Below, one piece after another: positions 24,272 to 31,380 of a stretch of DNA of 64,000 bases; the stretch's first letter is position 1, and every line of letters begins with the position of its first letter. The notes beneath the pieces are model-generated. The model had not been told where the DNA came from. It saw nothing but the letters and a program-made list of their open reading frames with translations, and ran no database searches. Source of the DNA: an uncultured Gemmatimonadales bacterium (GTDB lineage: Bacteria > Gemmatimonadota > Gemmatimonadetes > Gemmatimonadales > Gemmatimonadaceae); the NCBI GenBank assembly GCA_963850905.1, contig CAWKMU010000003.1, positions 736,001 to 800,000 of the forward strand, given 5' to 3'. A program made the position numbers and the translations under genes.

Positions 24272-24550
24272 TTACCAGTTGATCGTGCCTTGCTTCGATG
24301 TGTCCACATCCTCTTCGTGACCGGTCTTGAAGAGGAACGCCTCGAGATTCTTCGTCAGAAACGCGCGCGCCTGCGGATCCATCACGTTGAGGCCATAGTG
24401 ATTGATGAGCATGGTCTGCTGGCGGACCCACTGGGCCCAGCAATCCTGACAGATCTCGCCCACGATCCGGGCACCAATCGGGCCAGGGAACGGCGCACGC
24501 GCAAACGCCGCACGCGTCTGGCCGCAGCGGGAGCAGGTGATGTCAGACAT
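24272..24550 (-). CDS. yggX: Oxidative-damage protection / Fe(II)-trafficking protein
   Basis: PFPGPIGARI...ICQDCWAQW..QQTMLINHYGLN..DPQARAFL. Confidence 0.88.
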   Translation of the reverse strand: MSDITCSRCGQTRAAFARAPFPGPIGARIVGEICQDCWAQWVRQQTMLINHYGLNVMDPQARAFLTKNLEAFLFKTGHEEDVDTSKQGTINW

Positions 24551-24593
24551 GCGGATGAAAGGTAGCGGCTCGTGATGAGTAGGGCGCGGAGAC

Positions 24594-24762
24594 TGAACGG
24601 CGGGGCCAAGGGTCAGGGGCCAGGGATCGGGGAACAAAATCGAAAGGCCGGTCACAGTGCATAGTGACCGGCCTTGGACCGGTAGGGGCGACGCATTGCG
24701 TCGCCCGTTGTTGTCGTTGCGGTTGTCGTTCCCTGACCCCTGACCCCTGACCCCGCCGTTCA
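24594..24762. repeat. Complete composite element with TGAACGGCGGGG...CCCCGCCGTTCA termini, hairpin and GTAG-REP (24682)
   Basis: Perfect 12-bp terminal inverted repeat; the right end contains the desaturase stop codon. Confidence 0.9.
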
Positions 24763-25509
24763 CGCCCTCGCGTACTTCACCTTCGCCAACCGGATCCAAG
24801 ACAGCAGTTTGATGTACACCCACCCGATGTCGAACTCGTACCACTTCGCGGCGAACTTGGCAGAGTGGGGGTCGGCGTGGTGGTTGTTGTGCAGTTCCTC
24901 ACCACCGAGCCAGATCGCCACGGGCGAGATGTTCCGACTCTCGTCTTTGACCTCGAAGTTCCGGTAGCCGAGCGCGTGCCCGACGCCGTTGATGATCCCC
25001 GCCGCCCAGAACGGGATCCAGATCATCTGGATGCCCCACACCAGCGCGCCGACGAAGAAACCAAACAGGTAGAGGTCGATCGCCAACATCAGAAAGATGC
25101 CCAGGACGTTGCGCGGCTCGAGCAGGTGCCGCTCCAGCCAGTCATTGGGTGTTCCCTTGCCGTACTTCTCGAGGATGCCCGGTTGGCGAACCGCGTTGCG
25201 GTAGTAGAAAGCGCCCTTGATCACGATGTTGCGCAAGCCTTCGATCAGTGGACTGTGCGGGTCCCCCTCGCGATCTGCATAGGCGTGGTGCTTTCGATGG
25301 CACGCCACCCACTCCTTTGTCACGATCGACGTCGTCAGCCACAGCCAAATGCGCATCGGCACGGCGGCGACGGAGTGAAACACGACGCTGCGATGCGTCT
25401 GCGCCCGATGCAGGAAGAGCGTCACGCACACGTTGGTGAAGTGACCCGCCACCAGCACGAACAGCACGGGAATCCACCAATGTGACGCCCAACTGCCGAA
25501 TCCCGGCAT
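24760..25509 (-). CDS. Acyl-CoA (delta-9-like) fatty acid desaturase
   Basis: His boxes LHRAQTHR, HRKHH...DPHSP and GEELHNNHH; FDIGW. Confidence 0.92.
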   Translation of the reverse strand: MPGFGSWASHWWIPVLFVLVAGHFTNVCVTLFLHRAQTHRSVVFHSVAAVPMRIWLWLTTSIVTKEWVACHRKHHAYADREGDPHSPLIEGLRNIVIKGAFYYRNAVRQPGILEKYGKGTPNDWLERHLLEPRNVLGIFLMLAIDLYLFGFFVGALVWGIQMIWIPFWAAGIINGVGHALGYRNFEVKDESRNISPVAIWLGGEELHNNHHADPHSAKFAAKWYEFDIGWVYIKLLSWIRLAKVKYARA

Positions 25510-25689
25510 GTCAGTTACTCCAAAGTGAGTCACGCTGTGAGCTACGCCACGCGCCAAGCCGACACGAGCGTGCCGGCCGACGCATACATAAAACATACAC
25601 GGTCCCGGCAGCGATTGCACGGCGCCCGTGACCCCTTCGACGCCCAAATACCAGACGACTGAACCGCGTCGCCAAGCACGCCGACGCCG

Positions 25690-27186
25690 TCAGTCGATCT
25701 CGAGGGGCCGGGGGTCCCGCGTCAGCTCGTCGACCACGAGGACGGCGTGCGCGTTGGTGTCCGCGACACACACCGCACGATGGACGGGGTCGTACGCAAT
25801 ACCGCCGGGCTCATGCAGACCACGCAACCAGGTGTCAACGCGCCGCGTGACCGGATCGACCCACTTCACCGCGTCGTTGTAGGAGTCCGCCACGAGCAGC
25901 CGGCCGCTCGGATGCGCGGCGATGCCCTGCGGATGTTGTAATCGGACGGCATCGCCGACACCGTCCTTGTCACCAAAATCGAACAGTCCCGTCCCGACGA
26001 TCGTGTGCACCTCGCCGACCGCGCGCCCCGCGCGCCGCTCGTCGGGGATGAAGGAGCGTGCCGCGCTCGATTCCGCGTCCACGAAATAGAGTCGGTCCCC
26101 ATCGCTCGCCGTCGTGATGCCCATGGGTTGCGCCAACAGCGCGTCACCCGCGGGGCCATCCGTGATGTCTTCGGCGCCCGTGCCCGCGGCGACCTCCGCG
26201 CCGGCGTGCGCTTCCTCACCACGCAGCGCCCAGAGCTGGTGAGTGCCCGCCATCGCGATGTACACCGTCCCGTCGAGCACGGCGACATCCCACGGGGATG
26301 ACAGCGCGCCGGCCCCCCGCTCCCGACGCGTGCGCAACTGGTGCCCCGTCCCGGCGACGGTCCGCACGACTCCCGCACTGATATCGATCGCGCGCACGGC
26401 GTGATTCTCGGTGTCCGCCACGAACACGGTGTCCCCCACAAAGGCGAGACCGTTCGGCGAGAAGAACCGCGGCGCAGCGCCGTCGACGAGGCCAGGCACG
26501 CCGTCGCCAAACGCGCGCGCATCCGTCAATCGCCACCCCCGGTTCTCATCTCCGGGCGTGAGCCGGCCAACGAGCACGCGATGATGCCCAGTGTCGGCGA
26601 TCGCCATCCGCTCACCCGACACGGTGACCTTGCCGGGGTATCGCAACATGCCGGGCGGGATCGCGCTGTCATCGAGCGGGAACGTGACCGGCACGCGGCT
26701 CTCGTCCAGCCCGACGGGTTCCGCGCTGATCAACCGTTCGATCAGTGGCTCCAGCATGGCGGCCGTGAACTCGCCCGCATGCGCGCCGAGCACTCTGCCC
26801 GCGGGGTCGATCAGCACTAGTGTGGGCCAGGCACGCACCGCGAACGCACGCCAGATACGGTACTGTCGGTCGTTGACGACGGGATGCGCGAGATCAAGTC
26901 GTCGCACCGCTTCGCGGATGCGAGGGGTCTCACGCTCCGTGATGTACTTCCCGCTGTGTACGCCGATCACCGCGACGTCCTGCGGGAACTTGTGCTCGAG
27001 CTCCCGCAACTGCGGGAGTACGTGCAGACAGTTGATTCAGCCGTACGTCCAGAAGTCGAGCAGGACGACTCTGCCCCGGAACTCATCCAACGTGAGCGCT
27101 CGTCCGCCCGTATTTATCCAGTCGACGTTTGTCGGAAACGGTGGAGCGCGGACGGCTGGCGTCGTCAGGATGTCATCAGCAGCCAT
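25690..27186 (-). CDS. Thioredoxin-domain plus NHL-repeat protein with in-frame UGA at codon 50 (candidate selenocysteine, UxxC)
   Basis: ORFs 27037-27186 and 25690-27036 are in the same frame: [51 protein letters not shown], then NHL repeats ([33 protein letters not shown]). Confidence 0.85.
26993..27026 (-). promoter_or_regulatory. Candidate bacterial SECIS hairpin
   Basis: mRNA UGCACGUA-CUCCCGC-AGUU-GCGGGAG-CUCGAGCA: a 7-bp upper stem, a 4-nt loop with G in the second position, and the loop 25 nt after the UGA. Confidence 0.65.
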
Positions 27187-28447: not shown

Positions 28448-29576
28448 GTGACCATACAGATCGGAATTCTGACGGAGACCACGCACCGCGAACGGCGAGT
28501 TGCCCTGGTCCCCGATGGCGTGCGCACGCTCGTGCGCGCCGGATGCGCCGTCCGCGTGCAACGCGGCGCTGGACGCGCCGCGTACGTCACCGACGAGGCT
28601 TACGCGGACGCCGGTGCGACGCTGTTGGACGACGCCGCGCAGGTGCTGCAGGACGTGGACGTCCTCGCCAAAGTGCAACCGCCGACGGCGCAGGAAATCG
28701 GCGCGCTCCATAGCGGCGCCGTCATCGTGTCGTTGCTCGCGAACACCCCGGTTGCCGACCTCGGTTCCGCGCTCACGCAGAGCGGCATCACCCTGTTGGC
28801 GCTGGAACGCGTGCCGCGCATCACGCGCGCCCAATCAATGGACGTGCTGTCGTCGCAGAGTACCGTCGCGGGATACAAAGCGGTCCTGCTCACCGCCGCC
28901 GAGCTGCCGCGCCTCTTCCCCATGCTCACCACCGCCGCCGGCTCGCTCGCGCCGGCCAAGGTCTTCGTCCTGGGCGCCGGCGTCGCAGGACTGCAGGCCA
29001 TCGCGACCGCCCGCCGCCTGGGCGCAGTCGTGAGTGCGTTCGACGTGCGCGCGGTCGCGCGCGAACAAGTCCAGAGTCTGGGCGCCACCTTCGTCGCGGC
29101 GGATGCCCTGAGCCAGGACGGAGAAGGCGCGGGCGGCTATGCTCGCGAGCAAACCGCCGATCAGCAACGCCGCACGGCCGACGCGATCGCGCGCCACGTG
29201 GCCGACATGGATGCCGTCATCACGACGGCGCAGGTCCCCGGCCGGCCGGCACCGCGACTCCTGACGGCCGACATGGTCAAGCGCATGCGACCAGGGTCCG
29301 TCATCGTCGACCTGGCGTCCGAAACCGGCGGCAATTGCGAGCTCACGCGCCCAGGCGAGACCGTCGAAGTCGGCGGCGTGCGGATCATCGGGCCCATCAA
29401 CCTGGCCAGCACGGTGCCGTTTCATGCCAGCCAGAATGTTCAGCCGCAACGTCGTCACGCTGCTGCGCCACCTGATCACCGATGGGGCCCTGAAAATCGA
29501 TCCGACCGACGAGATTGTGAGCGCGATGCTCGTCGGCGCGCCAGGTGTAAGCCCTCAACCCTCGGCCGCTCAGTAG
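28448..29576 (+). CDS. pntA: NAD(P) transhydrogenase alpha subunit, NAD-binding part; apparent +1 indel near 29435
   Basis: ERRVALVP, VPRITRAQSMDVLSSQ, GAGVAGLQAIATA and VDLASETGGNC; the corrected frame gives ASQMFSRNV...DEIV and a stop at 29574-29576. Confidence 0.9.
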
Positions 29577-29602
29577 ACCCACCGACCGCAGGAGGATATG
29601 GC

Positions 29603-29992
29603 ATGTCGAGTATGAGTCTCGTGCAGCTGACCATCACGATGACCGAGCTGTCGGTCTTCGTGTTGGCTGGCTTCCTGGGCTACCAGATCGTGACCAAGGT
29701 CCCGCCCCTCGTGCATACGCCGCTCCTGTCGGCCACCAACGCGATCTGCGGCATCTCGATCGTCGGCGCCCTGGTGGAAGCGGGCGCGCATCAGACGATG
29801 ATCAGCACCATCCTCGGCGTCCTCGCGGTCACCGCCGCGATGATCAACATCGTTGGCGGGTTCCTCATGACCGACCGGATGCTGAACATGTTCCGGCCGA
29901 AGCAGAAGACGCCGCCGGCCGCGCCAGCCGCCGCATCCGGCCTCTCGCCCGACGCCGTCGCCGGCAACGGGCGCGCACCCGGAGCCGACTGA
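29603..29992 (+). CDS. pntA: NAD(P) transhydrogenase alpha subunit, membrane part
   Basis: GGAGG Shine-Dalgarno; FVLAGFLGY..V.KVPPLVHTPLLSATNAI and NIVGGF.MTDRML.MF. Confidence 0.9.
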   Translation: MSSMSLVQLTITMTELSVFVLAGFLGYQIVTKVPPLVHTPLLSATNAICGISIVGALVEAGAHQTMISTILGVLAVTAAMINIVGGFLMTDRMLNMFRPKQKTPPAAPAAASGLSPDAVAGNGRAPGAD

Positions 29993-29995
29993 ACA

Positions 29996-31380
29996 ATGCT
30001 ACGCACGGTCTTCATCGAGTCGACGTACCTCGCCGCGTCCATCCTGTTCATCCTAGGCATGCGCAGTATGACGCGCGCCGAAGGCGCGCGTCGCGGCATG
30101 CAGCAGGCCATGGTCGGGATGTTGTTGGCGATCATCGGCACCCTGTTCAACCACAACATCATCGATTTCCGCTGGATCGCCGTCGGGCTGATCGCCGGCG
30201 CCGTGCTCGGGTATCCGCTGGGCGCGATGGTGCAGATGACCGCCATCCCGCAGGCGATTGCGGTATCACACATGTTCGGCGCGATTGCCGCGACGTTGGT
30301 CGGCGTCGCCGAGTACTACAATGCCGCCGGCCATGTGTCCTCCGGCATCATGACTGGCACTCGGATTCGAGACACTGCTCGGGTCGCTCACCGTCACCGG
30401 CAGCTTCATGGCGTTCGGCAAGCTGCAGGGCATCGTCATTGATCGGCCATTCACGTTCAGGGGACAGAATGCGCTGAACCTGTCGCTGTTTGCCGTGACG
30501 CTCGCGATCTTCGGCTACCTGGTCGTGACGCCCACGCATCCGCCACTCTTCTACGCGATGCTCGGGTTGTCGCTGCTGATCGGCGTCTCCATGGTGCTTC
30601 CGATCGGCGGCGCGGACATGCCGGTGGTGATCTCCCTGCTCAATTCGTACGCGGGCCTCGCGTCCGCCGCGACCGGATTCGCCATCGGCAACAACGTCTT
30701 GATCATCGCCGGCGCGCTCGGCGGCGCCTCGGGCTTCCTCCTGTCCATCCTGATGAGCAAGGCGATGAATCGGTCGTTCGCCAACGTCCTGTTCGGCGCG
30801 TTCGGCACGCCCGCAGTCGGCATCGGCGACCAAGACGGCGACCGGCCTCACCGTCCACCCGATTAGTGCGGAGGACGCCGCGATGCGACTCGCTTACGCC
30901 GGCGAAGTCATCATCGTTCCGGGCTACGGCATGGCCGTCGCCCAATCCCAGCACCAGGTGCGCGAGCTCGCGGAGCAGATCGAAAAGCGCGGCGGCACGG
31001 TGAAGTACGCGATTCACCCCGTCGCCGGTCGCATGCCGGGACACATGAACGTTTTGTTGGCCGAAGCGAATGTGCCCTACGAGCGCCTGTACGACATGGA
31101 GGAGATCAACGCGGAGTTCGATCACGCCGATGTCGCACTCGTCATCGGCGCCAATGACGTCGTCAATCCCGCAGCGCGGACTGACCGCGCGAGCCCGATC
31201 TACGGCATGCCAATCCTCAACGCTGATCACGCCAAGAGCATCATCGTCCTCAAGCGCGGCATGAACCCCGGCTTCGCTGGAATCGAGAACGAGTTGTTCT
31301 ACGATCAGAAAACCAGCATGCTGTTTGGCGATGCGAAGGCGAGTTTGACGAAGCTCGTCGCGGAAGTGAAGAACGTCTGA
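29996..31380 (+). CDS. pntB: NAD(P) transhydrogenase beta subunit; two apparent indels (~30353, ~30817)
   Basis: Segments in three frames: VQMTAIPQ; GSFMAFGKLQG, PIGGADMPVVISLLNSY, AMNRS; VPGYGMAVAQ, IHPVAGRMPGHMNVLLAEA, GANDVVNP. Confidence 0.9.

What the first reader, a model, noticed from the sequence alone, without database searches (positions are those of the whole stretch)
25690..27186. Candidate selenoprotein: thioredoxin-NHL protein with UxxC and a SECIS-like hairpin
Seen: two ORFs in the same frame are separated only by TGA at 27037-27039, reading [14 protein letters not shown]. On the mRNA a perfect CUCCCGC/GCGGGAG stem with an AGUU loop starts 18 nt after the UGA and has an imperfect lower stem. 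Known: the Trx-NHL family (NHLRC2/SOQ1-like) has DFWTYxCINC, so the UGA sits at the redox-active first Cys. Bacterial SECIS elements are hairpins just 3' of the UGA with a G near the start of the apical loop. Inference: UGA is recoded as selenocysteine, or possibly as Cys. Other defects in this window are indels, whereas this is an in-frame stop at the one position where Sec is expected. No selABCD genes are in the window.
Basis: partly seen in the sequence, partly recalled or inferred. Interest (0 to 1): 0.82.

Follow-up and report, generated by a model that had tools for sequence, protein, structure and literature searches.

The report
Selenocysteine form of NHLRC2/SOQ1 redox protein
The apparent stop codon inside this soil-bacterium gene is very likely read as selenocysteine, which would give a full-length relative of human NHLRC2 and plant SOQ1 with selenium at its active site; databases cut the gene short, and the selenium forms nearly all lack the tail domain that receives the electrons in the plant enzyme.

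Summary
Confirmed. One 498-codon gene (27186-25690, minus strand) has an in-frame TGA at codon 50, the first Cys position of the NHLRC2/SOQ1 CxxC. The genome holds selA, selB, selD and tRNA-Sec. Short-read contigs from three studies keep the TGA. Of 117 homologous loci, 52 have TGA and 65 have TGC/TGT. The 7-bp hairpin keeps at least 6 pairs in 42 of 52 TGA genes and 0 of 65 Cys genes, with compensatory changes. Five same-genus Cys orthologues lost it, four of them while keeping the same PQLR peptide. The hairpin alone is weak: 9.3% of all TGAs in the genome fit the model. Added here: 1 of 52 TGA forms, against 41 of 65 Cys forms, carries the SOQ1-type two-Cys C-terminal domain (not significant once kinship is counted), and no stand-alone copy was found. 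One subclade went back to Cys in this gene and in selD but kept Sec in two other proteins. The family is absent from a 2026 catalogue of 119 selenoprotein families, though a 2022 preprint may mention it in passing. The scan has found this same gene five times in other genomes. Real, a known kind of recoding, moderate interest.

The parts
25690..27186 (-). Full gene, 498 codons plus TGA stop; thioredoxin-like domain + NHL propeller, no SOQ1-type C-terminal domain; signal peptide not evident by eye
26725..27147 (-). TlpA/Trx8-like thioredoxin domain (about residues 14-154)
   Evidence: Pfam Thioredoxin_8, AhpC-TSA, Redoxin; model secondary structure
27037..27039 (-). In-frame TGA, codon 50, inferred selenocysteine; aligns with SOQ1 C431, the first Cys of CxxC
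27028..27039 (-). U-I-N-C motif (UxxC), preceded by Gly rather than the Cys of CCINC
27001..27018 (-). SECIS-like upper stem-loop CUCCCGC-AGUU-GCGGGAG, +19 to +36 after the UGA; loop 25 nt from the UGA, G at loop position 2
25696..26637 (-). NHL-repeat beta-propeller (about residues 184-497)

Best explanation
This is one gene for a bacterial NHLRC2/SOQ1-family protein whose in-frame UGA is very likely decoded as selenocysteine, and whose UxxC site would act as a selenol-thiol oxidoreductase on a partner protein held in the cleft between the thioredoxin domain and the propeller. Shown in sequence: the UGA sits at the first Cys of the CxxC; the genome encodes SelA, SelB, SelD and tRNA-Sec; a conserved, covarying hairpin follows the UGA only in TGA genes. 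Inferred from the known bacterial pathway: SelB-GTP-Sec-tRNA binds the AGUU loop 25 nt downstream and inserts Sec, giving a 498-residue protein. Inferred by analogy (about 0.55): Sec50 attacks a disulfide or oxidised sulfur on the partner and Cys53 resolves it, as the C431/C434 pair does in SOQ1. SOQ1 passes its electrons to its own C-terminal domain, which this protein lacks, so the acceptor must be another molecule. The confidence below is for the recoding, not for the substrate.
For: Machinery over curated cut-offs in the own genome: selA, full-length selB (6), selD with TGA (7, 73), tRNA-Sec 69.1 bits. Codon bridged with 0 differences by contigs in runs X1, X4 and X5; two diverged X11 contigs list no change at the codon. 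TGA in 52 and Cys in 65 of 117 loci. At least 6 of 7 stem pairs in 42 of 52 TGA genes and 0 of 65 Cys genes; double changes C-G to U-A (16 and 5 genes) and G-C to C-G (6 genes). On 29 of the 52 TGA genes: 89.7% of cells paired, covariation 0.280, 0 of 500 shuffles as high. All 33 TGA genes coding PQLR use CCG CAG TTG CGG; 0 of 4 Cys genes coding PQLR do. TTG at +10 in 44 of 45 TGA genes and 9 of 63 Cys genes, against a 9% background. selB in 23 of 27 genomes of TGA loci and 6 of 18 of Cys loci. The same C-AGUU loop occurs in two other TGA genes of this genome. Predicted fold matches NHLRC2 6gc1 and SOQ1 7djk, TM 0.85-0.87. SOQ1 C431/C434 is redox active (bioRxiv 10.1101/2024.11.01.621559).
Against: No protein, RNA or selenium-labelling evidence. 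The hairpin model alone fits 9.3% of TGAs in this genome. RNAalifold returned no consensus structure on the 29-row alignment. 10 of 52 TGA genes keep fewer than 6 of the 7 pairs in this register. Two TGA-locus genomes (G126, G138) showed no selB, selA or tRNA-Sec; their completeness is not given. NHLRC2 and SOQ1 are inactive in the insulin assay, so the substrate is unknown. Neighbouring genes are not conserved beyond close relatives.
Confidence: 0.93

Rival explanations
1. Same recoding, different chemistry: without the C-terminal domain the selenol itself reduces the final substrate (methionine sulfoxide, a peroxide or a sulfenic acid) in the domain cleft, so the Sec form is a self-contained enzyme rather than an electron relay.
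For: 1 of 52 TGA loci against 41 of 65 Cys loci carry the two-Cys C-terminal domain, which aligns with the SOQ1 domain that holds the Msr activity. No stand-alone copy in the own genome or in 8 other TGA genomes, while the control genome rang at E 2e-14.
Against: The link is not significant on independent pairs: about 5 of 6 pairs do not differ in the domain. 24 Cys forms also lack the domain. A resolving Cys and the WP (cis-Pro position) motif are kept, as in ordinary disulfide reductases.
Confidence: 0.25
2. The UGA is read as Cys or Trp by some other route (altered code, suppressor tRNA or leaky read-through).
For: Cys at this site is tolerated in 65 of 117 homologues. Cys-inserting UGA tRNAs exist in some bacteria (recalled, not checked here).
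Against: TGA is the normal stop of this gene and of 27 of 52 TGA-form genes. The only UCA tRNA found is a tRNA-Sec. The hairpin is selected only where the TGA is.
Confidence: 0.03
3. A true stop: a sequencing error, a pseudogene, or a gene expressed as a short leader plus a restarted propeller protein, as databases annotate it.
For: The assembly has frameshifts and some in-frame TGAs at positions recalled as Arg. 107 of the 120 nearest database proteins lack the motif region.
Against: The same TGA at the same codon in 52 loci from several phyla, with conserved frames on both sides; bridged by other runs' contigs. A restart after the TGA would cut the thioredoxin fold through its active site.
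Confidence: 0.02
4. The Sec/Cys site mainly binds a soft metal or metalloid rather than exchanging disulfides.
For: 30 of 52 TGA forms read C-U-I/V-N-C, and Haft and Gwadz link CU motifs to heavy-metal handling.
Against: This gene and its family-level relatives read G-U-I-N-C. No metal-resistance genes are conserved beside it. The homologous pair in SOQ1 forms a disulfide.
Confidence: 0.07

Closest known systems
Human NHLRC2 (PDB 6GC1, 6G7W)
   Same: Trx-like domain + NHL propeller; phmmer E 1.8e-77; Foldseek TM 0.85-0.87, 33% identity
   Different: GUINC instead of CCINC; no C-terminal beta-domain; bacterial
Arabidopsis SOQ1 lumenal region (PDB 7DJJ-7DJM)
   Same: E 7.7e-85; U50/C53 align with the redox-active CxxC pair C431/C434
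   Different: No HAD domain, membrane anchor or two-Cys C-terminal domain, where SOQ1's Msr activity is reported; Sec at the first Cys
Catalogued UxxC thioredoxin-fold selenoproteins (Prx-like thiol:disulfide oxidoreductase PF00578, thiol-disulfide isomerase-like cd02966, redoxin family PF08534; Table 1 of PMC13188914)
   Same: UxxC in a TlpA/AhpC-type fold, decoded with a downstream bacterial SECIS
   Different: No entry names an NHL or propeller partner; the deep-Sep 'Redoxin family protein' representative is an unrelated short protein
[quoted passage not shown]
   Same: Possibly this very family: many Thermomicrobiales members read CUINC, and NCBI names Cys members 'redoxin domain-containing protein'
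   Different: One clause only, with no architecture, SECIS or link to NHLRC2; the accession could not be retrieved here, so identity is untested; this gene has GU, not CU

Membership tests
Bacterial selenoprotein gene | In-frame UGA with conserved coding sequence on both sides | tested here: met
Bacterial selenoprotein gene | Sec/Cys pairing with homologues at the same position | tested here: met
   52 TGA and 65 TGC/TGT of 117 loci
Bacterial selenoprotein gene | selA, selB, selC, selD in the genome | tested here: met
Bacterial selenoprotein gene | bSECIS model: loop 3-9 nt, stem 4-16 bp, G in first two loop positions, 16-37 nt spacing, MFE <= -7.5 | tested here: met
   loop 4, stem 7, G at position 2, spacing 25, -12.8 for the stem-loop; low specificity alone (9.3% of TGAs)
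Bacterial selenoprotein gene | Selenium shown in the protein; SelB binds the hairpin | not testable with these tools
   needs 75Se labelling, MS or a reporter
NHLRC2/SOQ1 family | Trx8-like domain followed by an NHL beta-propeller | tested here: met
NHLRC2/SOQ1 family | CC(I/V)NC motif as written in PMC6107167 | tested here: inconclusive
   reads G-U-I-N-C: the CxxC pair is kept as UxxC, the extra Cys is Gly; Gly also occurs there in 34 of 65 Cys homologues
NHLRC2/SOQ1 family (three-domain, SOQ1-like type) | Two-Cys C-terminal domain | tested here: not met
   absent; PMC6107167 section 17 counts bacterial forms without it as one of three groups of the family
NHLRC2/SOQ1 family | Dithiol-disulfide exchange / Msr activity | not testable with these tools
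   shown for SOQ1 only
Curated NCBIfam selenoprotein families | Score above a family cut-off | tested here: not met
   no model over its cut-off for this protein or four homologues

The most novel reading that the evidence does not exclude
The selenium form of the NHLRC2/SOQ1 family is an uncatalogued, multi-phylum selenoenzyme that has traded the C-terminal acceptor domain for a selenol: it repairs oxidised sulfur directly at the thioredoxin-propeller cleft, and so exposes the ancestral chemistry of the human FINCA-disease protein.
Probability: 0.2. Interest if true: 0.72.

Novelty: new member of a known kind. Interest (0 to 1): 0.45.

Why it matters
Sec replaces Cys almost only at catalytic redox sites (established knowledge). 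Its natural use at the first Cys of CINC in dozens of genomes is independent evolutionary evidence that this residue does redox chemistry across a family whose human member has no assigned activity. The two-domain bacterial form can be traced with 75Se and used to trap partners. It also shows an annotation gap: 107 of the 120 nearest database proteins start after the active site. Same-genus Sec and Cys pairs give a ready test of what selenium buys. The recoding mechanism itself is standard.

Tried and rejected
Single-sequence hairpin as proof: rejected, 9.3% background. RNAalifold consensus: none returned. Genus-wide loss of Sec use in the Cys subclade: rejected, since SelW-like and Prx genes keep TGA in all five genomes. 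FdhA as the reason for keeping the machinery: TIGR01553 not found in the own genome, found in 2 of 13. Conserved operon: desaturase-like, YggX and hydrolase neighbours occur only in close relatives. Stand-alone C-terminal domain: not found in the own genome (82% complete) or in 8 TGA genomes; one weak hit (E 0.0025) in the Cys genome G009 was not followed up. Sec-versus-C-terminal-domain link after correcting for kinship: not significant. No RNA holder was listed. Run X6 laid nothing; X2, X3 and X7 gave no piece that bridges the codon by the tool's 31-letter rule. No sigma-70-type promoter match. Prior art: ten literature searches gave no paper describing a Trx-NHL selenoprotein. WP_012872293.1 did not appear in the cluster look-up and cannot be fetched by accession. 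PMC12013261 is not held. No complex prediction was run, as no partner is known.

Full report
Observation. The minus-strand frame 27186-25690 has one internal stop, TGA at 27037-27039, codon 50 of 498, in [14 protein letters not shown]. Eighteen bases after it, CUCCCGC pairs with GCGGGAG around AGUU; the 60-nt fold gives z -2.71 with 1 of 200 shuffles as good. Public gene calls start after the codon: 107 of the 120 nearest database proteins lack the motif region, among them the window's own 426-residue call. The nearest named relatives (56-89% identity) are Gemmatimonadales/Gemmatimonadaceae soil MAGs, so the window is inferred to come from that group.

Is the codon real? Contigs from public runs bridge it with no differences in X1 and X4 (one study, possibly the source campaign) and in X5 (a second study). 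Two diverged contigs in X11 (a third study) list no change at the codon. Of 8 runs laid, X2, X3, X6 and X7 gave no bridging piece. This check mattered because the assembly does contain other damage: pntB is frameshifted, and three other genes have in-frame TGA at sites I recall as Arg.

Machinery. The genome (82% complete) has selA, a full-length selB and selD over their curated cut-offs, and a tRNA-Sec (69.1 bits, cut-off 47) just downstream of selD; selD has TGA at its active site. None lies in the window. At least four more candidate selenoprotein genes were seen: SelW-like CxxU, a TxxU peroxiredoxin, an AhpC/TSA UxxC and a DsbA-like UxxC. Two of them carry the same C-AGUU loop. Among wider homologues, selB was found in 23 of 27 genomes with the TGA gene and 6 of 18 with the Cys gene (45 genomes tested, not all loci). 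Of the four misses, two have selA or tRNA-Sec and two (G126, G138) showed nothing; their completeness is not given.

Comparison. Twelve of 41 related genomes hold the gene: 7 with TGA (own included) and 5 with TGC/TGT. I pooled 122 loci from three searches, dropped three duplicates, and could read the codon in 117 of 119: 52 TGA, 54 TGC, 11 TGT. One more duplicate pair (L066/L111) remains among the 52, and the sets are best hits, not a random sample. TGA forms occur in Gemmatimonadota, Chloroflexota, Rokuibacteriota, Actinomycetota and a Bacillota-labelled MAG. At least 6 of the 7 stem pairs are kept in 42 of 52 TGA genes and 0 of 65 Cys genes. Double changes occur at three pairs, some of which alter the protein. 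On 29 of the 52, pairing (89.7%) and covariation (0.280) exceeded all 500 shuffles and all slid controls, while the count of pairs with double changes was less extreme (17 of 500); related sequences can inflate these figures. The cleanest control is synonymous: all 33 TGA genes coding PQLR spell it CCG CAG TTG CGG, and none of the 4 Cys genes coding PQLR does. The loop's Leu codon is TTG in 44 of 45 TGA genes, 9 of 63 Cys genes and 9% of other Leu codons. Against this: RNAalifold found no consensus, 10 TGA genes do not keep this register, and the generic model (PMC13188914) fits 9.3% of all TGAs here.

Evolution. With the site and the next 14 residues masked, a FastTree tree of 116 rows (one short row left out) needs at least 8 Sec/Cys changes, 6 forced by well-supported branches. 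The five same-genus Cys genes form a supported clade nested among TGA rows, which points to a return to Cys. Those genomes keep selB (5 of 5), tRNA-Sec (5 of 5) and selA (4 of 5). Their selD is also Cys (4 of 4 found), whereas it has TGA in all 8 TGA-form genomes checked. Their SelW-like and Prx genes keep TGA (5 of 5 each). The loss is therefore selective, and it is one branch, not several events. L127 (TGC) and L128 (TGA) share the same downstream hairpin, a very recent switch. G016 (one TGA orthologue, and rows) and G157 (one Cys row) are unpublished genomes; no conclusion depends on them alone.

What the protein is. Pfam gives Thioredoxin_8/AhpC-TSA/Redoxin plus NHL. The best solved relatives are SOQ1 (E 7.7e-85) and NHLRC2 (E 1.8e-77), with U50 on the first Cys of the CxxC. 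The AlphaFold model (pLDDT 92, folded with Cys for Sec) matches 6gc1 and 7djk at TM 0.85-0.87. In SOQ1 the C431/C434 pair is redox active and passes electrons to a two-Cys C-terminal domain with reported methionine sulfoxide reductase activity (bioRxiv 10.1101/2024.11.01.621559; abstract, passages and section 14 read). Bacterial Cys forms often carry that domain, which aligns to SOQ1 through both cysteines: 41 of 65 Cys loci against 1 of 52 TGA loci. Among database proteins it was found in 100 of 147 with the motif and 0 of 211 without (biased by my queries). No free-standing copy was found in the own genome or in 8 other TGA genomes, with a working control. On independent pairs the link is not significant, so it is a lead only: Sec forms sit in lineages that lack the domain. 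Neighbours are not conserved beyond close relatives, in line with PMC6107167 (passages and section 17 read).

Mechanism. Shown: codon, machinery, hairpin under selection. Inferred (0.93): standard SelB/SECIS insertion of Sec. Inferred by analogy (about 0.55): selenol-thiol exchange between U50 and C53 reduces a partner bound at the domain cleft. The main rival (0.25) is direct reduction of the final substrate by the selenol.

Prior art. Table 1 of the 2026 review (119 families; section 7, parts 1-2 of 3, and passages read) has no NHL or propeller entry. Term searches of BSepDB (main text, and a cut supplement that lists taxa), the GOS paper (passages), deep-Sep (main text and four supplements) and Peng 2016 (main text and supplement rows) found no such family. 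No NCBIfam model passes its cut-off. However, Haft and Gwadz (bioRxiv 2022; passages and section 25 read) mention CU-motif 'redoxin domain-containing proteins' related to WP_012872293.1. Thirty of the 52 TGA forms read CU and NCBI uses that name for Cys members, so this is probably the same family, untested. That preprint's supplements, Haft and Tolstoy 2025 (not held) and the BSepDB database itself could not be seen and may bear on novelty. The scan's own notes report the same gene five times in other genomes; I formed the reading before seeing them and they are not independent support.

Verdict. A real selenoprotein gene of an apparently uncatalogued architecture, decoded by the known route. 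New member of a known kind; interest 0.45.

Noticed in passing
G000:C3:1375007(+), C3:1623924(+), C3:2191485(-), C4:590290(+); loci L140-L143: Four further candidate selenoprotein genes: SelW-like CxxU, AhpC/TSA UxxC with a CCGCC-AGUU-GGCGG hairpin, TxxU peroxiredoxin with an N-terminal hydrophobic leader, DsbA-like UxxC. The first three keep TGA in relatives; the DsbA-like gene was found in 0 of 12 relatives.
   Followed up: partly
G005-G009 (L011-L015, L130, L132, L134, L135): One subclade of the genus has Cys in both the Trx-NHL gene and selD, but keeps the Sec machinery and TGA in SelW-like and Prx genes: a selective Sec-to-Cys return.
   Followed up: yes
L127 and L128: Near-identical Thermomicrobiales-order orthologues, one TGC and one TGA, with the same downstream hairpin: a very recent switch.
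   Followed up: no
L069: The only TGA form with the C-terminal two-Cys domain; it lacks the family hairpin and is sister to a Cys gene, although its genome has selB. Independent gain or nonsense change.
   Followed up: partly
L051, L059, L062, L070: A Chloroflexia clade of TGA genes with a different downstream sequence (PAV/PVV) and a weaker or shifted hairpin; possibly another SECIS type.
   Followed up: no
G000:C3:2816044(-), C3:1984812(-), C4:304926(-): In-frame TGA directly after a His codon in three ordinary genes, at positions recalled as Arg; may be a systematic base-calling error or real nonsense changes.
   Followed up: partly
window 28448-31380 (+): NAD(P) transhydrogenase genes: the alpha parts read as one ORF and pntB is in three pieces across frameshifts.
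   Followed up: partly
window 24272-25647 (-): Downstream on the same strand: a desaturase-like gene (label recalled from His motifs; no Pfam hit at 1e-5) and a YggX-type Fe(II)-trafficking gene; this order is kept only in close relatives.
   Followed up: partly
G001:C3:94068-95387 and G007:C32:255980-257830: The search reported one in-frame TGA inside selA of G001 and inside selB of G007; not examined.
   Followed up: no
G011, G016, G018, G020, G021, G024 and several Chloroflexota genomes: selB matches cover only about the first 345 of 581 model positions although the open frames are long, suggesting a divergent SECIS-binding C-terminal half.
   Followed up: no
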